From a virus (Duplodnaviria; Heunggongvirae; Uroviricota; Caudoviricetes): DNA of 39,415 nucleotides. Of this stretch, positions 1 to 39,415 are shown piece by piece. Positions within the stretch are counted from its first letter, which is position 1. Each line of letters begins with the position of its first letter. A model generated the notes under the pieces. That model made no database searches and had not been told where the DNA came from. It saw only the letters and a program-made list of their open reading frames with translations. Both the position numbers and the translations under genes were made by a program. The DNA lies in the IMG/VR virus record IMGVR_UViG_2778261630_000006, positions 1 to 39,415 of that record; one strand, written 5' to 3'.

Positions 1-288
1 CTACGATGCAAGAATCCATACCAATAAGCATCCGATAATTGGGAAAGAAAAATCCATCAGGCTTGCCACATCCCAAGCGCGCGGATCAAAACCGCCCCAC
101 CACGGCATATTCATTCGCTTGCCATGTCCGAACATTTCAATCCAGCGATATTCTGCCTGGGTATGTTCACGAGCGATGAAGAATGTACAACCGGCTATCG
201 CTCCGTAAGCCCAGTTTCCGGTAAAAAGACCAACCAGTACCTGTGCGACCACAGCGCAAAGTGCGTGATGAATTGGGGTTTTATCCAT
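1..288 (-). CDS. Hypothetical membrane protein, N-terminal part only; gene runs off the window start
   Basis: ATG at 286-288 directly abuts the tailspike stop (289-291). Hydrophobic segments in the translation. No homolog recognised. Confidence 0.4.
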   Translation of the reverse strand: MDKTPIHHALCAVVAQVLVGLFTGNWAYGAIAGCTFFIAREHTQAEYRWIEMFGHGKRMNMPWWGGFDPRAWDVASLMDFSFPIIGCLLVWILAS

Positions 289-2874
289 CTACTCTATCTC
301 TTTTGCTTTTTTAATTATCAATTCAAGCTCTGTTAAACGAGATTCAATACGTTCACACCTTCTTCGCTGGAATGCAGCCTCCAACCACAAACATTCATCT
401 GGACGCAATCCCCAACGCTCACCAGCATGTACAACCAGTTCCGTGTCACCAGTATCGTATTCTTCAAAGTATTCGTGAACGATGTCTTCTCCTTCAGGGG
501 ATTTAGCTATAAATGACACCTTGCGCTGTGCCATTACAGGTTGGTACTCATCATCCCATTTATCATGACATAGCAAGCCAAATCTTGTTCCATCTATCCC
601 CTTTGCAAGAAACGCATCTCTTACCTGCTGTGCAATTGCTCCGAAATGCCAACGAGCAGTATCCGAACCTTTAGCCTTAATATCGGACAACCACTGGTAA
701 ACGATAATATTTACGTCACCCCATGCGTCAAGAATTGCATCCTGATCCACCTCCATGATTTCTGAAAGTTGCTCTACTGTCAGTGGCTTTGTTTTCAATG
801 TCTGGTCTGAAGTATTTATTGCCCCATTAGTTGCATATACTTGCGTCCACCGTTTAGATGATGTCCCACATGATGACGTATTATCTTTATTAGCACTTAT
901 ATAGCCATTAACCTCCGCTGACTGACCGATATACGAATATGAAGATGTTGATAAGGGAGATTTAAATATCCATTGAGCATTGGTAAAGTCATAAATACCG
1001 GTATCACCTTTTTCACTAACATGAAAAGTTACATTCCGTAACGTATTCTTTGCATCATAACGGGCGGCTTGTGTTGTTGCCCTCGAAACAGTGAATCCTT
1101 TGTCATCAAGGTTTGCCTGCTCTATGACTTCACCACCAGGCATAATTTTACCAAGGCTTAACAAACCAGAGTTAGTGACAATATCATGGGTTGAATCAAT
1201 GATAATACCAGGCTGATTTCTTGATGTTGTTTTTACATGCATGACCTGTTGTGGCATTAATGTGTAAAATGTAGTTTCTCGCCCACTATCACCATCTGGT
1301 ATGCCATTTGTATTCCCCATTACAAGGTCATACCCACCTGCAATCATACGGAAAAACATTGCTTCTGGTTCATATGTAAGATTGCTAACATCTGGCGTTC
1401 CGGTATCATTTGGATCTGCTATTTCATAGGCTCTTCCTGCACCTGCCTGTATTTGCTGCACCCCAAGATAAACACCATCAAGTGTGTACTGATGCAAATA
1501 TTTTCTGGTTGAAGAATATGCAGATCCAGCCTGACAAAAATAAATAGCAGTACCGTCACACGCAACTGTTTGCATATCCCTCACAAAATCGGCAATTTCA
1601 AATTCAAAAGTTGCTTCATTACGATAATCGTAATTGTACGCCTGCGGGTTAATAAATTTGCTGGTATCAAATACTTTTACATAATAGCGAATTTGATCTG
1701 GTGTTGATGGGCTCTCACCAGGGCCAACATAACGTTTTGCTGTAGTAATCAGCCATCGACTCATAGGGTCGGTGCATAAAACATTTACCTGATTCTCGTA
1801 ACCATCTTCCCATATGAGAAAAAACTCTGGTTCAATTTCACCACCATCAGTAGGGGTGAATCTGGTGATATACTTTGCGCGATCCTCTCCTTTAGCTGTG
1901 CCAGCTAACCCCCATATCTGTAACTGGCCTCTTGTGTTACGAAAACCAACGCGCCCTATGGTTAAACCAAGACATTGATGTCCTAATTCTCTACTACCTT
2001 TAGTCTCCCAAAGAGGAGTTAACTCTTCATTCCCAAACCAATTATAAGCAACAACTTTATTAACTTCGTCACCAGAACTAACGCTGCCACTCACATTTAC
2101 CAAGCAATAAAGAACACTGTCATAATAATCAAGAACAGCACCCTGTATGACAGTATTTTTAATTGTTGCCAGTCGCAACCCTGACTTAACATGATTAGGA
2201 GTAGAAGGTCTGAAACCTGTATACATCCCCTTTTTTATAGTTTGTATTCTTTTTTCAGTAAAATCAGCATCTGGCAGTAATCGATTCTCTGTGCGAAAAT
2301 AGCCATTTATATACTTATTTCCATCAAAAACTTGATCTGTTATATATGTATTACCCCTTAGATCAACAATCCTTCCTGTGATTTGTTTTTCTAACTCTTG
2401 AAAAGATAATGTGTCATCGGTGATGCCATCACCTTTTGCTCCCCATCCGCGAGGGTCAGCGTCATCACGCCACCGAGACATCTGCAATTCATGATATTTT
2501 TTAGCACCTTCCGGGTCTTCTAATTGTTGTCTTAATTGGTCAGGATCGTACTTAAGCACATTCGGAAAATAGAACTGCTGCGTACCATATGCATCGTAAA
2601 CAGCCATAGAATGGCCTTGCACGGTAACGAATTTGGAAATCTGTCCGTTGTATACCGGGTATCCAGCAGCATTGATAACGATTGGCTGTGGCACCTGAAC
2701 ATAAGTACCATCTTCTCGTTCCAGATATACTGGAATCTGGTTTTCTGGATTTACCGGATCTGTGTCAATCTTACCGATATAAATTTTTCCATTTGCTACG
2801 GTTTTAAAAGAGCTAGCCATTGTGAAGAGTTGCGATGGCATACCTATCACAACATTTGGGGTTATATCAGGCAT
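289..2874 (-). CDS. Tailspike: P22 gp9-type head-binding N-terminus, pectate-lyase-like beta-helix body, C-terminal chaperone-like domain
   Basis: N-terminus MPDITPNVV...[21 protein letters not shown]...VLKYDPDQ matches the P22 tailspike N-domain. [11 protein letters not shown] motif downstream. C-terminal HFGAIAQQ segment. Start set at the second in-frame ATG (2874), which has an AGGA ribosome-binding site; the ORF extends in frame to 2967. Confidence 0.8.
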
Positions 2875-3216
2875 ATTAGTCATCCTGTTTGAAGATTTAG
2901 ATATTGAAGAAAACGGAATGACTGCAGACAAAGATGCAATTGTTTTGAAAAATAACCTTCTATTCATTTAAAAACCATGTAACATGAACAAAACGATTAT
3001 TTTACAATACTCAAGAATCTTGATCAACAGGCATATTATTTATGCGCTTAATGCGTCACTTACAAAAATAAAAACAAGTAATACCTTTATTCCTATCGTC
3101 CATGATTTTTATTTTCAAACATTATTAAATAACAATTCCCATTTATAATATCTGTCATTTAATTTGCTCCAGATACAAGGAATCTCCGCAGCATGGCTAC
3201 GGTGAATTTTGGGCAT

Positions 3217-3239
3217 AAAAAAACCCAGCCGAAGCTGGG
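3217..3239 (-). terminator. Rho-independent terminator downstream of ant
   Basis: Plus-strand cccagc-cgaa-gctggg preceded by a run of seven A (a T-run on the minus-strand transcript). Confidence 0.6.
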
Positions 3240-3258
3240 TCGTTGCGTTGGTTATCTG

Positions 3259-4137
3259 TCAGTAGTTATGTACTGAAGGAGGTAATTCTTTATTCTTAAG
3301 TCTCATCCATGCGGAAAGATTCGTTGGTCCGTCTGGCTCATTGATATCAACATCTCGTGTGTGATTGATTAAAACGTCTCTCGCCATTCCGATAACATAC
3401 GAGAATTCATGACCGTAGTCGTAGCATCTGCCGGAATAGTTCGATTGAATTTGTTTTAATGCCGGATACAATTCGCGGAATAATGCCTGTGAACGGTTGG
3501 CATAATCCCATAGCCATACAAGGCTGTTTGCTTCTTTTGCAGAAAGCTCGTTGGTTTTCTTATCTTGTTTGCCAATGAACTCACCTTCAAGCACTACCCT
3601 GTGGATGTACTCTACGGCCAGCGGGATTTGTTCAATTGAAAGTTCATCAATGCTGTCAATACCAAAACGCTGATGAACCATATTGTATGCATCGTCATAG
3701 CGAAGTCCTTTCTTTCCTACCAGCATGTTTACTGCATCGCGTAGCGGTGTTCTTTCCTCAACAGTGGTTTTCTTGCCTTTCACATACTTGCCATGTTTGC
3801 GAATTGAAGGCAGAACTTCTGCTGTTACCCACTTGCGGAATTTGTGCGGGACTGAACCTTTATTGACGGCATCGCGGCAGCGCAGAACCAATGTATACAT
3901 ACCTGACTCGCTCACAATGCTTAGATTCTGCTCACCACCAAGGGTGTAACTTAAAGTTACTCCCTTTTCATCGTCATCAAGTGCAGTAAGCGCCTTGCGT
4001 GAGTTAGTCAAAGCTAAAGCATCACAAACATCTTTAGCTACAAACCACGGCTCGCCGCACTTGTTAATTACGCGGATTTCACTGTCGCCAAATTTGAAGA
4101 TGGTGAAATCGTTTTGTGCCTTTGCTATACTTTTCAT
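3259..4137 (-). CDS. ant: Antirepressor Ant
   Basis: Position after arc as in P22 immI; recognisable antirepressor sequence. Start at internal ATG 4135-4137 with AGGAAAT ribosome-binding site. Confidence 0.85.
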
Positions 4138-4205
4138 GTCAATATTTCCTAAGACGATTTGTTGATACCGAAGCCCTGACTGTTCCCGCAGTTGGGGCTT
4201 CAACT
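4138..4205 (+). ncRNA. sar: Candidate sar-like antisense RNA across the arc-ant intergenic region
   Basis: Extended -10 (TGcTATACT, 4123-4131) on the plus strand just inside ant; 13-bp hairpin with UUCC loop at 4170-4201 immediately after the arc stop. Ends not determined. Confidence 0.35.
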
Positions 4206-4367
4206 TTACGCGCCAATGCGTCCTTCCTTCTTAAAACTTTCCATTACTCTCTGATAAATCTCAGAGTTAACAGACCGACCATTCTCTTCCGCCACCTTGC
4301 GCACCAAATCCAATACTTCTTTAGGCCACCGCAAATTGAACTGCGGCATTTTGCTCATTCCTTTCAT
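4206..4367 (-). CDS. arc: Arc repressor (ribbon-helix-helix)
   Basis: Translation [53 protein letters not shown] is essentially P22 Arc. Confidence 0.92.
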
Positions 4368-4383
4368 ATTCACCTCACAATAT

Positions 4384-4400
4384 GGGTCCACGGTGGACCT
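4384..4400. promoter_or_regulatory. Mnt operator (Omnt)
   Basis: Near-perfect dyad GGGTCCACGGTGGACCT in the arc-mnt divergent region, matching the P22 mnt operator as recalled. Confidence 0.65.
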
Positions 4401-4409
4401 ATTGAGAAT

Positions 4410-4430
4410 ATAGTAGAGTGCTTCTATCAT
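4410..4430. promoter_or_regulatory. Arc operator (Oarc) overlapping Pant
   Basis: ATAGTAGAGTGCTTCTATCAT matches the P22 arc operator as recalled. Confidence 0.65.
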
Positions 4431-4457: not shown

Positions 4458-4712
4458 ATGGCTAGAGATGATCCGCACTTTAACTTCCGCATGCCTTTGG
4501 AAGTAAGAGAAAAATTAAAATACAGAGCAGAGTCAAACGGTAGATCAATGAACTCAGAATTGTTGCAAATCGTCCAAGATGCTCTATCGAGACCATCTCC
4601 TGTAAAAGGTTATCGCAATGAAGCTGAACGATTAGCCGAGATGCAGGCTGAACAGTTCAAGTCTGTGGTATTTGAGACACTTAAAAACATGTATGGCAAG
4701 GATGCAAAATGA
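4458..4712 (+). CDS. mnt: Mnt repressor (ribbon-helix-helix)
   Basis: Translation MARDDPHFNFRMPLEVREKLKYRAESNGRSMNSELLQIVQDAL... matches P22 Mnt. Confidence 0.9.
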   Translation: MARDDPHFNFRMPLEVREKLKYRAESNGRSMNSELLQIVQDALSRPSPVKGYRNEAERLAEMQAEQFKSVVFETLKNMYGKDAK

Positions 4713-5290
4713 TCGATTACAACCCAGCAAAAAAAGAAGTCATTGCAGCTAAAAAGTGCCTAGAGCAGATGAAATCATCTACAAACCATGATGATTTTGA
4801 AATGCACTGGCGAGAATGTCTTGGGCATATAGAAAAGTCTTTCAGTAAGTTGCTCTGTGCAACAAAGCCGGTTAGTGGAAAATTTAGCAGCCACTTCAAC
4901 CAAAAGTTCATGCTTAGAAAAACAGACAAAACCCTTGCTTACCTTCACCAAGCAAGAAATGCTGATCATCATTCCACTATGGAAATCTCAAAACTTGAAC
5001 CTCCTTATACTACTCTTGGGGCATTTCCGGGAGCAAGAAGCCATTATATTAAAGAGTTAATCATTGATTCAACAGGTAAAATAGCAAAATACGAAGGCGA
5101 CCCTATGATAGTTGAGTTTCATCCAGCAACAACTATGCCTATAACCGTAAGAAACCAAGGCAAAGATTATCCACCTCCAACAGAACATCTTGGCGAAAAG
5201 CTTGTTGATATACATCCATCTGTTCTTGCCTATCTCGGTATACAATTTTATGAAAAATGGATAGATGAGTCGTGTGCAACGTTTAGATAG
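4709..5290 (+). CDS. Hypothetical protein, translationally coupled to mnt
   Basis: ATGA overlap with the mnt stop. 193-codon ORF in an AT-rich segment. No family recognised. Confidence 0.6.
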   Translation: MIDYNPAKKEVIAAKKCLEQMKSSTNHDDFEMHWRECLGHIEKSFSKLLCATKPVSGKFSSHFNQKFMLRKTDKTLAYLHQARNADHHSTMEISKLEPPYTTLGAFPGARSHYIKELIIDSTGKIAKYEGDPMIVEFHPATTMPITVRNQGKDYPPPTEHLGEKLVDIHPSVLAYLGIQFYEKWIDESCATFR

Positions 5291-5457
5291 TTATTTTTGA
5301 TAATTTCAAGTATTTCCTCTTGACTTTGATTTACCCAAACGTGATCACACTCATGAAACCAGATTATGCTTCCTGTTTCGCCTTGTGCAATATAGGTGAT
5401 CATGTTTTCATTAACAATTATTACTGAGTTATCATGTGCGCAATTTAGTTTTATCAA
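5248..5457 (-). CDS. Possible small convergent ORF (69 aa)
   Basis: ORF overlaps the 3' end of the 4709-5290 gene by 43 bp. Weak ribosome-binding site. Could be spurious. Confidence 0.2.
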
Positions 5458-5519
5458 TTCGCATATCCTATCGTGACAAAGTAACTAGAAAAACTAAAGA
5501 GGTTGGTGTGTCTGATTCT

Positions 5520-6002
5520 ATGAGTTACGCTGTGCTAGTTGCCGCAACTCTATTTATTGGGATAGGGTTGCAGATTGCGTGGTTCTTTTTCTCTAGTTTT
5601 ATTAAACGCAAAAGAATTGAATCAAGGATATCTGAGATTTCTATTGCTATAGGGAAAAATGCTGAAAATTCAGAGAATGAGGCCTGCGCACTGAATTACC
5701 TTAAAGAAAAGTTTTCCCCTGAAAAATTTGAAAATAGAATTACTGATGCTCTTGGATTGGTAATATCAGTAATTCATATGCCACTAAGTTTGCTGATAAC
5801 AGTGTGGTACTTCGCCATGATCGCCGGAAGAATATTTGGCTTCATGAATATAGAGCCTGTAGTTCTTTGGGTTCCAATGATACTGCAACTGTTGTTAAGC
5901 GTTGCTATCTTTATTTTTTCTGTTTTTATAAAAATTGTCTTTGGAAGATACCCCGGAGAAGCGAAGGGATTTAATAAAGAATTCATAAAAACTATAAAAT
6001 AA
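5520..6002 (+). CDS. Inner-membrane protein at the position of P22 sieA; candidate superinfection exclusion protein
   Basis: About 160 aa with an N-terminal transmembrane segment and a C-terminal hydrophobic cluster. Sits between gp16 and mnt. Start is ATG 5520 or upstream GTG 5508 (AGAGG ribosome-binding site). Confidence 0.55.
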
Positions 6003-21060: not shown

Positions 21061-21498
21061 TTATTTCAGGCATTGCGTCCTGATGTATTCCTGCAGGTAG
21101 TTAACCTGCGCGGTTATCTTGTCGATTCCACTTCGGAGACGGTAATAATTGAGTTCAGCATCTGCTGTAAGTCTTGGGCTTTCTCCATCGCCCATGCCGC
21201 TGGCTCCGGTCTTTGACTTTGCACAGGAGGCGGCGACTTGCAGCCGCTTACGCCCAGCAGAAACATCATCACGGAGACTTTCGATAGTCGCGTTAGCATC
21301 AGCAAGCTCCTTTGTATATCTGGCATCGAGTTCTGCTACATCACGTTGACGCTTCTGCATATCAGCGATGATGGATGTGGCTTTATCGCGCTGGTCTTTG
21401 TAGGCGATGGCGTTATCACGGTAATGATTAACAGCCCATGACAGGCAGACGATGATGCAGATAACCAGAGCGGAGATAATCGCGGTGACTCTGCTCAT
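21061..21498 (-). CDS. Rz: Spanin inner-membrane subunit Rz
   Basis: [31 protein letters not shown]... matches lambda Rz. Confidence 0.9.
21114..21299 (-). CDS. Rz1: Spanin outer-membrane lipoprotein Rz1, embedded in Rz in another frame
   Basis: Embedded ORF with signal-like segment and lipobox (LLGVSGC) followed by a Pro-rich stretch. Start ambiguous (21299 or 21269). Confidence 0.65.
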
Positions 21499-21971
21499 AC
21501 CTCAATCTCTCTGACCGTTCCGCCCGCTTCTTTGAATTTTGCAATCAGGCTGTCAGCCTTATGCTCGAACTGACCATAACCAGCGCCCGGCAGTGAAGCC
21601 CAGATATTGCTGCAACGGTCGATTGCCTGACGGATATCACCGCGATCAATCATCGGTAAAGCGCCACGCTCTTTAATCTGCTGCAGAGCTACAGCGTCCT
21701 GGCTTTCTGGAGAAAAATCTTTCAGGCCAAGCTGTTTACGGTAAGCATCCCACCAGCGTAAAAGAAGCTGGTAACGTCCGGCGGCTGTTGATTTGAGTTT
21801 GGGGTTTAGCGTGACAAGTTTGCGAGGGTGATCGGAGTAATCAGTGAATAGCTCTCCGCCAACAATGACGTCATAACCATGATTTCTGGTTTTCTGTCGT
21901 CCGTTATCAGTTCCCTCTGACCACGCCAGCATATCGAGGAACGCCTTACGTTGATTATTGATTTCCACCAT
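21495..21971 (-). CDS. R: Endolysin R (lytic transglycosylase)
   Basis: Translation nearly identical to lambda R as recalled. Confidence 0.95.
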
Positions 21972-22278
21972 CTTCTACTCCGGCTTTTTTAGCAGCGAAG
22001 CGTTTGATAAGCGAACCAATCGAGTCAGTACCGATGTAGCCGATGAACACGCTCGTTATATAAGCGAGATTGCTACTTAGTCCGGCGAAGTCGAGAAGGT
22101 CACGAATGAACCAGGCGATAATGGCGCACATCGTTGCGTCGATTACTGTTTTTGTAAACGCACCGCCATTATATCTGCCGCGAAGGTACGCCATTGCAAA
22201 CGCAAGGATTGCCCCGATGCCTTGTTCCTTTGCCGCGAGAATGGCGGCTAACAGGTCATGTTTTTCTGGCATCTTCAT
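21955..22278 (-). CDS. S: Holin S (class I, dual-start MKM)
   Basis: Translation matches lambda S107/S105, including the Met-Lys-Met dual start. Confidence 0.95.
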
Positions 22279-38145: not shown

Positions 38146-38364
38146 ATGTACTTAACACTTCAGGAGTGGAACGCACGCCAGCGGCGCCCAAGAAGCCTTG
38201 AAACAGTTCGTCGATGGGTACGCGAGTGCAGGATATTCCCTCCTCCGGTTAAGGATGGAAGAGAGTATCTGTTCCACGAATCAGCGGTAAAGGTTGACTT
38301 AAATCAACCAGTAACAGGTAGCCTTTTGAAGAGGATCAGAAATGGGAAGAAGGCGAAGTCATGA
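38146..38364 (+). CDS. xis: Excisionase
   Basis: MYLTLQEWNARQRRPRSLETVRRWVRECRIFPPPVKDGREYLFHESAVKVDLN... matches lambda Xis. Confidence 0.95.
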   Translation: MYLTLQEWNARQRRPRSLETVRRWVRECRIFPPPVKDGREYLFHESAVKVDLNQPVTGSLLKRIRNGKKAKS

Positions 38365-39415
38365 GCGCCGGGATTTACCCCCTAACCTTTATATAAGAAA
38401 CAATGGATATTACTGCTACAGGGACCCAAGGACGGGTAAAGAGTTTGGATTAGGCAGAGACAGGAGGATAGCAATTACTGAAGCAATACAGGCCAATATT
38501 GAGTTACTCTCAGACAGCGGACGCAAATCACTGATAGACAGAATTAAAGGCGGTGACGCAATCACTCTTCATGTGTGGCTTAACCGATATGAAAGAATCC
38601 TCACCGAAAGGGGGATCAGGCCGAAAACTCTACTCGACTACGCCAGCAAAATCAGGGCAATCCGAAGAAAATTGCCGGACAAACCGCTCACTGACATATC
38701 AACGAAAGAAGTGGCAGCAATGCTAAACACCTACGTAGCAGAAGGTAAAGCAGCTTCCGCAAAATTAATCAGGTCAACCCTTGTTGACGTTTTTCGTGAA
38801 GCAATAGCCGAGGGGCATGTGGCAACGAATCCGGTAACAGCAACCCGTACAGCAAAGTCAGAAGTAAGGCGCTCAAGGCTGACAGCTAATGAGTATGTCG
38901 AGATTTACCATGCAGCCGAACCTCTCCCTATCTGGCTAAGGCTGGCGATGGATTTGGCCGTCGTTACAGGGCAGAGAGTCGGCGATTTGTGCAGAATGAA
39001 ATGGTCAGACATAAACGACAACCATCTTCACATTGAACAGAGTAAAACAGGGGCTAAACTCGCCATTCCGCTAACGCTAACGATTGACGCGCTCAATATC
39101 TCATTGGCTGATACACTACAGAAATGCAGGGAGGCCAGCAGCAGTGAAACTATAATCGCATCAAAGCATCACGATCCACTTTCCCCGAAAACAGTATCAA
39201 AGTATTTTACAAAGGCGAGAAATGCATCTGGACTCTCATTTGATGGAAACCCGCCAACATTCCATGAACTGCGTAGCCTGTCAGCGAGGCTATACCGGAA
39301 CCAGATTGGCGATAAGTTTGCTCAACGTCTTCTCGGGCATAAATCAGATTCAATGGCGGCGCGGTATAGGGACAGCCGTGGACGGGAATGGGACAAAATT
39401 GAAATCGACAAATGA
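38342..39415 (+). CDS. int: Tyrosine integrase, lambda Int family
   Basis: MGRRRSHERRDLPPNLYIRNNGYYCYRDPRTGKEFGLGRDRRIAITEAIQANIEL... and C-terminal HELRSLSARLY...LLGHKSDSMAARYRD match lambda Int; overlaps xis as in lambda. Stop is the last base of the window. Confidence 0.95.
   Translation: MGRRRSHERRDLPPNLYIRNNGYYCYRDPRTGKEFGLGRDRRIAITEAIQANIELLSDSGRKSLIDRIKGGDAITLHVWLNRYERILTERGIRPKTLLDYASKIRAIRRKLPDKPLTDISTKEVAAMLNTYVAEGKAASAKLIRSTLVDVFREAIAEGHVATNPVTATRTAKSEVRRSRLTANEYVEIYHAAEPLPIWLRLAMDLAVVTGQRVGDLCRMKWSDINDNHLHIEQSKTGAKLAIPLTLTIDALNISLADTLQKCREASSSETIIASKHHDPLSPKTVSKYFTKARNASGLSFDGNPPTFHELRSLSARLYRNQIGDKFAQRLLGHKSDSMAARYRDSRGREWDKIEIDK

What the first reader, a model, noticed from the sequence alone, without database searches (positions are those of the whole stretch)
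1..288. Membrane-protein gene directly coupled to the tailspike stop, truncated by the window edge
Its ATG follows the tailspike stop with no gap, implying co-transcription with the late operon. In P22-like prophages the region distal to the tailspike usually carries O-antigen modification (lysogenic conversion) genes. The encoded fragment is hydrophobic but I do not recognise it as GtrA or Oac.
Basis: inference. Interest (0 to 1): 0.4.

Follow-up and report, generated by a model that had tools for sequence, protein, structure and literature searches.

The report
Small membrane protein gene riding behind tailspike
The gene after the tailspike is a complete 95-residue inner-membrane protein of a widespread but uncharacterised phage family that sits next to receptor-binding-protein genes in many phage types; it is not an O-antigen glucosyl- or acetyl-transferase and its function has never been tested.

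Summary
The ORF at 1..288 (-) is real and its ATG abuts the tailspike stop (TAG-ATG). It is not truncated: an in-frame TAG occupies bases 3..1, and the 95-aa product aligns end to end with about 95-100-aa homologues.

It has no Pfam, NCBIfam, PADLOC or PDB match, and nothing resembling GtrA or Oac. It matches PHROG 1443 (unknown function) full length, and dN/dS is 0.09-0.18.

AlphaFold2 gives a confident three-helix membrane bundle. The core motif (REHTQAEYRWI...MPWWGGFD; H8, R40, E41, Q44, E46, W72, P83) is conserved from Alpha- to Gammaproteobacteria.

The gene is a self-contained mosaic module. It lies beside receptor-binding-protein genes, almost always immediately 3', in P22-like, epsilon15-like, lambdoid, P2-like, Ackermannviridae-like and jumbo phages, co-directional and usually abutting. 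About 38% of complete E. coli genomes carry it. Sphingomonadales have chromosomal, non-prophage copies.

Lysogenic conversion by O-antigen modification is not supported. My best guess, with low confidence, is a late-co-expressed inner-membrane accessory protein that binds a conserved envelope or entry component, giving an exclusion-type effect. Function remains untested.

The parts
1..288 (-). Complete CDS: 95-aa PHROG-1443-family three-helix membrane protein plus its TAG stop
   Evidence: ORF and translation; PHROG 1443, E 5.8e-55, profile 1-94 of 97; dN/dS 0.09-0.18; identical CDS annotated in RefSeq.
286..291 (-). TAG-ATG junction: tailspike stop (291-289) abutting the start codon (288-286). 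This is also the exact 5' boundary of the mosaic module
   Evidence: In one search, DNA homology to phage 21 and vB_EcoP-611R6 begins at query position 1213, which is window base 288.
1..3 (-). In-frame TAG stop codon lying on the window edge, so the ORF is not truncated
220..279 (-). Predicted helix 1 (residues 4-23), carrying conserved H8 (codon 265-267) and Q16
   Evidence: AF2, pLDDT 92.6; conservation.
133..213 (-). Predicted helix 2 (residues 26-52): hydrophobic first half, then the polar stripe R40, E41, Q44, E46, R48
70..174 (-). Family signature, residues 39-73: AREHTQAEYRWIEMFGHGKRMNMPWWGGFDPRAWD
   Evidence: invariant or near-invariant columns; nearly the same motif in Alphaproteobacteria.
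7..69 (-). Predicted helix 3 (residues 74-94) with D79 (invariant in the closer alignment A1) and P83. Roughly its last 45 nt is where homology between alleles usually breaks
289..2874 (-). Upstream partner gene: P22-type tailspike with a Head_binding N-terminus (2536-2874) and a Peptidase_S74 intramolecular-chaperone C-terminus (610-810). The ORF is open back to 2967
   Evidence: In one search, bases 1-3275 form one block shared with an argW prophage that has a different integrase.

Best explanation
Shown: bases 1..288 (-) encode a complete 95-aa protein under purifying selection. It is predicted with high confidence to be a three-helix membrane bundle. It belongs to a widespread, uncharacterised family (PHROG 1443). 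The gene is an autonomous mosaic module whose 5' boundary is its own ATG. It sits beside receptor-binding-protein (RBP) genes, almost always immediately 3', in many unrelated phage types. It is co-directional with them and usually abuts or overlaps them, so it is made together with the late RBP transcript.

Inferred: the deeply conserved polar residues H8, R40, E41, Q44 and E46, together with D79 (invariant only in the closer alignment A1), lie at the same depth of the bundle. With the aromatic interfacial loop MPWWGGF they form a binding or ion site at one face of the inner membrane.

Inferred, and my committed guess: through this site the protein binds a broadly conserved inner-membrane component. 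That would be either the machinery or lipid-linked intermediates of envelope-glycan assembly, or a component used for phage genome entry. This makes the infected cell, or a lysogen with read-through expression, a poorer target for further phage. That is an exclusion-type accessory function that does not depend on which RBP the phage carries.

Its conserved 5' ~240 nt also serves as the downstream homology arm when receptor-binding cassettes are swapped between phages.

Likelihoods: identity and genomic behaviour about 0.95; late co-expression about 0.75; exclusion or envelope-modulating role about 0.3.
For: Complete ORF abutting the tailspike stop.

Full-length PHROG 1443 match. 566 homologues and 456 clusters at 50% identity, all standalone proteins of about 90-140 aa. 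dN/dS 0.09-0.18.

AF2 mean pLDDT 92.6, with helices at 4-23, 26-52 and 74-94.

Conservation: E41 and W72 are invariant in the distant alignment A2. H8, G29, R40, Q44, A45, E46 and P83 are at least 90% conserved there. D79 is invariant in A1 only. The motif is nearly identical in Alphaproteobacteria.

Module boundary at the ATG. 83 close copies are joined to 9 upstream and 14 downstream sequence classes. Eight of the 9 upstream classes end in a tailspike, a fibre, or a fibre-associated small ORF.

The same adjacency occurs in:
- a P2-like Aeromonas prophage, a Comamonas GpJ prophage and a Salmonella multi-tailspike myovirus contig;
- the jumbo phage ACP1, phiHAP-1 and a Kuttervirus remnant;
- Leclercia and Halomonas;
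- Chelativorans and Desulfovibrio;
- the Uetakevirus phiv142-3.

A 1.7-kb block of receptor-binding domain plus small ORF is 98% identical between a Uetakevirus and a P22-like prophage, and the homology ends inside the ORF's 3' end.

The family is accessory, not essential. Only 69-72 of 50,697 phage records carry it. It is present in 38% of complete E. coli genomes, with up to 8 copies.

Many linked RBPs are glycan-directed: beta-helix or pectate-lyase spikes and Laminin_G_3 lectin fibres.
Against: There is no experimental datum for any family member. The one paper on a carrier prophage tested the neighbouring genes only.

There is no PADLOC match and no informative fold match.

There is no evidence of its own promoter. 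Expression in the lysogen, which a classical exclusion or conversion gene needs, is therefore unsupported. This prophage already carries a SieA-like gene as a separate opposite-strand unit.

Sequence conservation is far higher than is usual for exclusion proteins.

Sphingomonadales carry the gene among housekeeping genes, not in prophages or defence islands. That points to a general cellular role.

Membrane orientation is unresolved. K/R counts put the conserved loop in the cytoplasm for this protein, but the Arg-rich C-tails of alphaproteobacterial members argue the opposite.
Confidence: 0.35

Rival explanations
1. It is a small membrane enzyme, ion-binding protein or transporter subunit with a general cellular function. 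It was borrowed from, or donated to, bacteria such as Sphingomonadales, and phages carry it as an auxiliary gene that adjusts membrane physiology late in infection. Exclusion is not its purpose.
For: A deeply conserved charged and polar cluster lies in or near the membrane: H8, R40, E41, Q44 and E46, plus D79 in the closer set. The motif is almost unchanged between proteobacterial classes. Chromosomal copies sit in housekeeping contexts: overlapping the ligA stop, a 4-nt overlap with a DsbA-like gene, and a locus that also holds the ribosomal protein S4 gene. dN/dS is low.
Against: 95 aa and three helices are very small for an enzyme. No fold or profile similarity to any known membrane enzyme or transporter was found. 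This reading does not explain why the phage copies sit next to RBP genes in every lineage examined.
Confidence: 0.2
2. It is a helper of the receptor-binding protein: a membrane-located factor needed for folding, maturation, trimer release or attachment of tailspikes and fibres. It occupies the position usually held by tail-fibre assembly genes.
For: It is immediately downstream of RBP genes and translationally coupled or overlapping with them. This is the classical position of fibre chaperones. It is present in phages I take to be virulent.
Against: The linked RBPs are structurally unrelated: S74 tailspikes, other P22-type spikes, Laminin_G_3 fibres, T4-gp37-like tips, P2-type fibres and GpJ. 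One conserved helper for all of them is unlikely. Most phages with the same RBP architectures lack it, since only 69-72 of 50,697 records carry it. In phiHAP-1 a separate fibre-assembly gene is present upstream of it. Sphingomonadales copies have no RBP neighbour. A membrane location is unprecedented for such chaperones, as far as I know.
Confidence: 0.12
3. It is a lysis-related membrane protein: an accessory holin, antiholin or lysis-timing factor made with the last late genes.
For: It has about 95 aa and three predicted transmembrane helices, like class I holins. It is a late-operon member. In phiv142-3 it lies just upstream of the membrane-protein, holin, endolysin and Rz block. Alphaproteobacterial members have Arg-rich C-tails.
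Against: This prophage has a complete holin, endolysin and Rz cassette at 21.06-22.28 kb. There is no match to any holin PHROG or Pfam family. This protein has no charged C-terminal tail. The long, highly conserved helix 2-3 loop is unlike holins. Stable chromosomal copies next to housekeeping genes would be odd for a lethal pore former.
Confidence: 0.1
4. This is the first reader's reading: a lysogenic-conversion gene that chemically modifies O-antigen, by Gtr-type glucosylation or Oac-type acetylation.
For: The tailspike-distal slot carries conversion genes in related phages: OafA in vB_EcoP-611R6 and the polymerase plus inhibitor in epsilon15. P22 gtrABC and Sf6 oac do the same, from my own knowledge. 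Many linked RBPs target surface glycans.
Against: There is no match to GtrA or acyltransferase-3 models even at E of 1 or less. There are no gtrB or gtrC neighbours. It is far too small. There is no independent promoter or terminator. It occurs in phages I take to be virulent and in Sphingomonadales chromosomes. A weaker version survives inside the best explanation: a small inhibitor or modulator of glycan assembly, like the epsilon15 polymerase inhibitor.
Confidence: 0.04
5. It is a host chromosomal gene flanking the attachment site, or a spurious ORF.
For: It is the terminal ORF of the window, and its G+C (0.50) is higher than that of the tailspike (about 0.39-0.43).
Against: It is found inside phage genomes and between tailspike and integrase in argW prophages. 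It shows strong purifying selection. It occurs in up to 8 prophage-borne copies per E. coli genome.
Confidence: 0.01

Closest known systems
Inner-membrane superinfection-exclusion proteins (P22 SieA, T4 Imm, HK97 gp15)
   Same: They are small phage-encoded inner-membrane accessory proteins, dispensable for virion production, and act after adsorption whatever the RBP. This is what I propose it works like.
   Different: There is no sequence similarity. The protein does not hit the SieA-like PHROG 7745, and the window has a separate SieA-like gene. SieA is an independent opposite-strand unit expressed in the lysogen, whereas this ORF is fused to the late RBP transcript. This family is also far more conserved and has chromosomal homologues.
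RBP-linked exclusion lipoproteins (T5 Llp, phi80/N15/HK022 Cor)
   Same: They are encoded next to the receptor-binding gene and travel with it.
   Different: They are receptor-specific lipoproteins that co-vary with the RBP. This protein has no lipobox, is polytopic, and stays the same while the RBP changes.
Conversion modules in the tailspike-distal slot (P22 gtrABC, Sf6 oac, 611R6 OafA, epsilon15 O-antigen polymerase plus 66-aa alpha-polymerase inhibitor)
   Same: They occupy the same genomic slot. The epsilon15 inhibitor is likewise a tiny hydrophobic protein that acts on a membrane glycan-assembly enzyme rather than being an enzyme itself.
   Different: There is no homology. The epsilon15 genes are on the opposite strand behind a terminator. 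Here the gene is co-directional with no gap.
Class I holins (lambda S105 type)
   Same: About 100 aa, three transmembrane helices, a late gene.
   Different: It is not in the lysis cassette, which is complete elsewhere. It has no holin family match, no charged C-tail, and a long conserved loop.
P2 Z/fun locus
   Same: In phiHAP-1 the family member sits exactly between the fibre-assembly gene and the sheath gene. That is the position of the P2 accessory or defence hotspot, from my own knowledge.
   Different: The resemblance is positional only. Z/fun is an unrelated protein with its own expression.

Membership tests
PHROG 1443 (phage protein family, function unknown) | Full-length match to the family profile | tested here: met
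   E 5.8e-55, residues 1-94 on profile positions 1-94 of 97.
GtrA (PF04138, bactoprenol-glucose translocase) | Match to the Pfam model | tested here: not met
   at E of 1 or less the only hit is PhoR_N (0.073, below cut-off). There is no GtrA model hit.
GtrA (PF04138, bactoprenol-glucose translocase) | About 120 aa with four transmembrane helices, encoded with gtrB and a serotype-specific gtrC | tested here: not met
   95 aa with three helices. The neighbours are the tailspike and, in argW prophages, intS.
Oac/OafA acyltransferase-3 (PF01757) | Match to the Pfam model; about 330 aa or more with about 10 transmembrane helices | tested here: not met
   One search gives no hit, and the protein is only 95 aa. 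A true OafA is seen as a separate gene in vB_EcoP-611R6.
SieA-like exclusion proteins (PHROG 7745) | Match to the family profile | tested here: not met
   It is not among the PHROG hits at E of 0.1 or less. Window ORF 5436-6002 (+) is the SieA-like gene.
Class I holin | Three transmembrane helices in about 100 aa | tested here: met
   (predicted only; topology not determined).
Class I holin | Member of the lysis cassette; holin family match; charged C-terminal tail | tested here: not met
   The lysis cassette is at 21061-22278. There is no holin hit. The protein ends ...VWILAS.
Known anti-phage defence systems (PADLOC-DB 2.0) | Match to any defence-protein model | tested here: not met
   no family even at E of 10 or less.
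Cor/Llp-type RBP-linked exclusion lipoproteins | Signal peptide with a lipobox cysteine; co-variation with the RBP | tested here: not met
   There is no L-[AS]-[GA]-C motif, and C11 is not conserved. The same protein follows at least 8 different RBP classes.
Exclusion or conversion function in general | Expression in the lysogen and a measurable change in phage susceptibility or surface glycan | not testable with these tools
   This needs transcript mapping and plating or LPS assays. Consensus scans show no promoter above chance.

The most novel reading that the evidence does not exclude
The family is a previously unrecognised, near-universal companion of receptor-binding cassettes in phages of diderm bacteria. 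It would be a miniature three-helix inner-membrane protein whose conserved His/Arg/Glu (plus Asp) pocket binds a universal lipid-linked envelope precursor, or the machinery that handles it. Phages would use it late in infection to shut down display of their own glycan receptors, or entry competence. Sphingomonadales would have kept the same protein as a housekeeping regulator of envelope-glycan assembly.
Probability: 0.15. Interest if true: 0.7.

Novelty: new variant of a known kind. Interest (0 to 1): 0.38.

Why it matters
The window's gene itself is ordinary in one sense. Identical copies are already in RefSeq as 'hypothetical protein', and 38% of complete E. coli genomes carry the family.

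The family as a whole is a good experimental target for four reasons:
- It is one of the most conserved small accessory proteins of enterobacterial temperate phages.
- It is physically tied to the most frequently exchanged phage module, the receptor-binding cassette, and appears to supply that cassette's downstream recombination arm.
- It crosses podo-, sipho-, myo- and jumbo-phage lineages.
- It has cellular homologues.

Knowing what it does would matter for engineering tailspike or fibre swaps, where it is likely to be co-transferred unknowingly. It would also help in interpreting prophage-borne phenotypes in pathogenic E. coli.

Tried and rejected
1. Truncated ORF: rejected, because the stop codon is on the window edge.

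2. Homology to any characterised family: Pfam, NCBIfam, PADLOC and PDB sequence profiles all gave nothing.

4. Linkage to the Peptidase_S74 chaperone domain: rejected, because the phage 21 side fibre and others lack S74.

5. The 37-codon 'tail fiber' fragment before the gene in vB_EcoP-611R6 as a relic of this tailspike's C-terminus: rejected, no similarity.

6. A conserved partner gene: all-against-all clustering of neighbours in 69 genome-derived loci found no family recurring beyond closely related sets of loci.

7. ligA linkage as a general rule: only 4 of 70 loci in the genome scan. A fifth case turned up later.

8. Defence-island context for the alphaproteobacterial copies: not seen. The neighbours are housekeeping genes. 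One HerA neighbour was not followed further.

9. Own promoter or terminator: not above shuffle expectation. A conserved terminator-like hairpin precedes one allele class, but the adjacent promoter-like match overlaps the start codon.

10. Literature: no paper mentions PHROG 1443 or tests any member. The phiv142-3 study tested orf6 and orf10, not orf5. Brenes & Laub 2025, the source of the PhiR phages that carry the gene, is not held.

11. Topology from charge bias: inconclusive.

12. The search for related loci with the divergent alignment failed for lack of a conserved stretch. The closer alignment was used instead, which biases the loci towards members that keep the QAEYRWI and MPWWGGF motifs.

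Full report
OBSERVATION. On the minus strand an ORF runs from ATG 288-286 to TAG 3-1. Translation of 300..1 reads 'EIE*MDKTPIHH...VWILAS*'. The ORF is not cut by the window edge, because the window begins exactly on its stop codon. The 95-aa product aligns over positions 1-94 of the 97-position PHROG 1443 profile (E 5.8e-55). A 100%-identical 288-nt copy is annotated as a complete CDS (WP_064238119.1, 'hypothetical protein') in E. coli H1827/12. The gene is real. It has 566 homologues in the 5.8-billion-protein collection and 456 clusters at 50% identity, all standalone proteins of about 90-140 aa. dN/dS is 0.09-0.18 against 32 distinct alleles, including one with 8 synonymous and 0 non-synonymous changes.

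THE UPSTREAM GENE AND THE WINDOW. ORF 289..2967 (-) is a P22-type tailspike. It has Pfam Head_binding at residues 32-144 and Peptidase_S74 at 720-786. Its true start is probably ATG 2874, as in the RefSeq CDS. The window is a canonical P22-like prophage, annotated:
- Ant (3259-4203) and an Arc-like repressor (4206-4430).
- Two plus-strand ORFs, one of them SieA-like (5436-6002).
- DNA-transfer proteins, needle and coat.
- A complete holin, endolysin and Rz cassette (21061-22278).
- An integrase that ends exactly at the last base (38342-39415).
The small ORF is therefore the terminal gene at the end opposite int. This integrase has no detectable DNA similarity to intS of strain H1827/12. Only bases 1-3275 (small ORF plus tailspike) are shared with that strain, where the same block lies between intS/argW and a decayed prophage. 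The tailspike plus small-ORF block is thus itself a mobile cassette.

Conservation is striking. Among relatives with 53% or more identity, 24 columns are invariant. Among 30-55% relatives, E41 and W72 stay invariant, and H8, G29, R40, Q44, A45, E46 and P83 stay at 90% or more. D79 is invariant only in the closer alignment. Alphaproteobacterial members carry almost the same core, (S/G)REITQAEYRWIE.FG.GLRANMPWWGG.DPRVW.

From the helix limits and a hairpin turn at residues 24-25, H8, R40/E41 and D79 should lie at the same depth near one membrane face. This is inference, because the coordinates could not be inspected. Which face is unresolved. For this protein all five K/R of the polar regions are in the helix 2-3 loop, so positive-inside puts the loop in the cytoplasm. 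Alphaproteobacterial members have Arg-rich C-tails that argue the other way.

GENOMIC BEHAVIOUR. DNA homology to phage 21 and to the Lederbergvirus vB_EcoP-611R6 starts exactly at the ATG. The ORF's G+C (0.50) exceeds that of the tailspike (about 0.39-0.43).

Among 83 close copies from viral and genome contigs, the 600 nt upstream fall into 9 unrelated classes. The 600 nt downstream, available for 46 of these copies, fall into 14 classes. The upstream classes are:
- A lambdoid side fibre plus a 92-aa PHROG 1361 ORF (38 loci, including phage 21).
- Two other lambdoid fibre arrangements ending in gp37-like tips (25 and 7 loci).
- Five classes of P22-type tailspikes carrying four distinct receptor-domain families.
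- One IS insertion.
Gaps to the upstream gene are mostly 0-43 nt.

The same adjacency recurs far outside E. coli:
- Aeromonas P2-like prophage: Phage_tail_fib, then the gene with a 4-nt overlap.
- Comamonas: GpJ, then a 72-aa ORF, then the gene.
- A 160-kb Salmonella contig resembling Ackermannviridae: the gene lies between two tailspike genes.
- Aeromonas jumbo phage ACP1: immediately before a Tail_spike_N/beta-helix gene.
- Halomonas phiHAP-1: after the fibre-assembly gene and before the sheath gene.
- Leclercia and Halomonas fibres.
- Chelativorans Laminin_G_3 fibre, and a Desulfovibrio pectate-lyase plus S74 spike.
- The epsilon15-like phiv142-3: Orf6 spike, then Orf5, then the lysis genes.

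A 1.7-kb block (receptor-binding part of the spike, a terminator-like hairpin and most of the small ORF) is 98% identical between phiv142-3 and a P22-like prophage. The homology ends inside the ORF's 3' end. That is the same place where E. coli alleles usually diverge. Clustering of neighbours found no partner gene recurring beyond closely related sets of loci.

The family is accessory. Only 69-72 of 50,697 phage records carry it. Even so, 2065 of 5426 complete E. coli genomes do, with a median of 2 and up to 8 copies.

A SECOND HABITAT. In Sphingomonadales the gene is chromosomal and not in prophages. It overlaps the ligA stop downstream of recN, lies between rmuC and a DsbA-like gene with a 4-nt overlap, and in another genome sits in a locus that also holds the ribosomal protein S4 gene. 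Other copies neighbour AMP nucleosidase, cytidine deaminase or Sdh/Frd-type genes. About 800 such proteins, mostly from soil metagenomes, were found. Sphingomonads lack LPS (my own knowledge), so the conserved function cannot be O-antigen chemistry as such.

EXPRESSION. Consensus scans find neither promoter-like nor terminator-like sites above shuffle expectation around the ORF. This includes the 91 nt that separate it from intS in H1827/12. With TAG-ATG abutment the simplest reading is co-transcription and coupled translation with the tailspike, making it a late gene.

By contrast, epsilon15 keeps its conversion genes in the same slot on the opposite strand behind a terminator. Those genes are the O-antigen polymerase and the 66-aa polymerase inhibitor. 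This prophage's SieA-like gene is also a separate opposite-strand unit. One allele class has a strong hairpin between the spike and the ORF. The adjacent promoter-like match overlaps the start codon and is probably chance.

INTERPRETATION. Shown: a complete, conserved, three-helix membrane protein gene that behaves as an autonomous module attached to RBP cassettes and is co-oriented with them. Inferred: a conserved polar and aromatic site at one membrane face binds something equally conserved.

I commit, at about 0.3, to an exclusion-type role. In this reading the protein acts at the inner membrane on envelope-glycan assembly or on genome entry, independent of RBP specificity. In kind it would resemble SieA, Imm or gp15, or the epsilon15 polymerase inhibitor, without belonging to any of those families.

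Four things keep this weak. There is no evidence of lysogen expression. Conservation is unusually high. Housekeeping-context homologues exist. There are no experimental data at all.

The rivals are:
- A general small membrane enzyme or ion-binding protein (0.2).
- An RBP helper (0.12). It is weakened by the diversity of linked RBPs and by the family's absence from most phages with the same RBP types.
- A lysis accessory (0.1). It is weakened by the complete lysis cassette elsewhere.
- Gtr- or Oac-type conversion (0.04).
- A host gene or spurious ORF (0.01).

Independently of function, the conserved 5' ~240 nt plausibly serve as the downstream homology arm for RBP cassette exchange.

LITERATURE. 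No paper in the held library mentions the family or tests a member. The phiv142-3 study deleted the neighbouring orf6 and never examined orf5. The paper describing the PhiR phages that carry the gene (Brenes & Laub 2025, cited in PMC13190303) is not held.

VERDICT. The conversion-gene interpretation is not supported, while the late-operon inference is. The gene belongs to a catalogued but uncharacterised family with an unusually consistent link to receptor-binding cassettes. Interest is moderate to low for this window and higher for the family.

Noticed in passing
window 4709-6002 (+): Two plus-strand ORFs sit in the immI region between gene-16-like and Arc/Ant. One is PHROG 23516 (193 aa, unknown function). 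The other is a SieA-like exclusion protein (PHROG 7745, E 3e-107). Both are oriented against the late operon, like independent lysogen-expressed morons.
   Followed up: partly
window 2874-2967 (-): The tailspike ORF is open from ATG 2967 (892 aa). Pfam Head_binding starts at residue 32, and RefSeq calls the CDS from the ATG at 2874 (861 aa). The 31-residue extension is probably not translated.
   Followed up: partly
window 1-3275 against L001 8001-11275: Only the small ORF, the tailspike and about 300 nt are shared (99.6%) with E. coli H1827/12. There the block abuts intS/argW and a decayed prophage carrying IS1, IS4 and a truncated DNA-transfer gene. The window's own integrase (38342-39415) shows no DNA match to that locus.
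   Followed up: yes
window 1 and 39415: The window begins on the stop codon of the first gene and ends on the stop codon of the integrase gene. The attachment sites lie outside the window.
   Followed up: no
L006 4938-4966 and L163 5938-5966: A conserved terminator-like hairpin, GCCG(C/T)CTTCTTGTTGGCGGC followed by TTATTTGTG, sits between the spike gene and the small ORF in one allele class. It is also present in L009, L012 and L013, and absent from the window.
   Followed up: partly
L163 4500-6230 against L006 3500-5230: The receptor-binding part of the spike plus the small ORF is 98% identical between a Uetakevirus (phiv142-3) and a P22-like prophage. This is a cross-genus RBP cassette transfer whose 3' breakpoint lies inside the small ORF.
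   Followed up: yes
L002 5386-8835 (phage 21): In phage 21 the family member is followed, on the opposite strand, by a complete sitABCD iron/manganese transporter moron.
   Followed up: no
L165 4977-7294; L166 and L167 7001-7971: Sphingomonadales carry chromosomal homologues that overlap the ligA stop, or overlap by 4 nt the start of a DsbA-family gene. This suggests operon membership with housekeeping genes.
   Followed up: partly
phage records HC6, ST1UNAM, ZCEC08 and PBM-3 (H91-H94); L160 5001-5153: Unannotated fragments of the family occur in several phages. The C-terminal half (PHROG 34165) is in 47-73-kb phages. The N-terminal half follows a gene of the tailspike cluster in Kuttervirus KFSST3. 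They look like decay products of the same RBP-linked module.
   Followed up: no
L086 (JAGZNZ010000051.1, 'Collinsella sp.' MAG): A 2.8-kb contig binned as Collinsella carries an 89%-identical copy with E. coli-type lambdoid fibre genes upstream. It is most likely a mis-binned coliphage contig.
   Followed up: no
window 704-731 (-): A promoter-like match, TTGACG-16-TATTAT (10 of 12), lies inside the tailspike S74 region, 416 nt upstream of the small ORF. The number of such matches in the region is not above shuffle expectation.
   Followed up: no
L130 3186-4883: In one Sphingomicrobium MAG the gene upstream of the homologue is a HerA-type helicase (DUF87). Some defence systems contain such helicases. 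This was the only defence-like neighbour seen.
   Followed up: no
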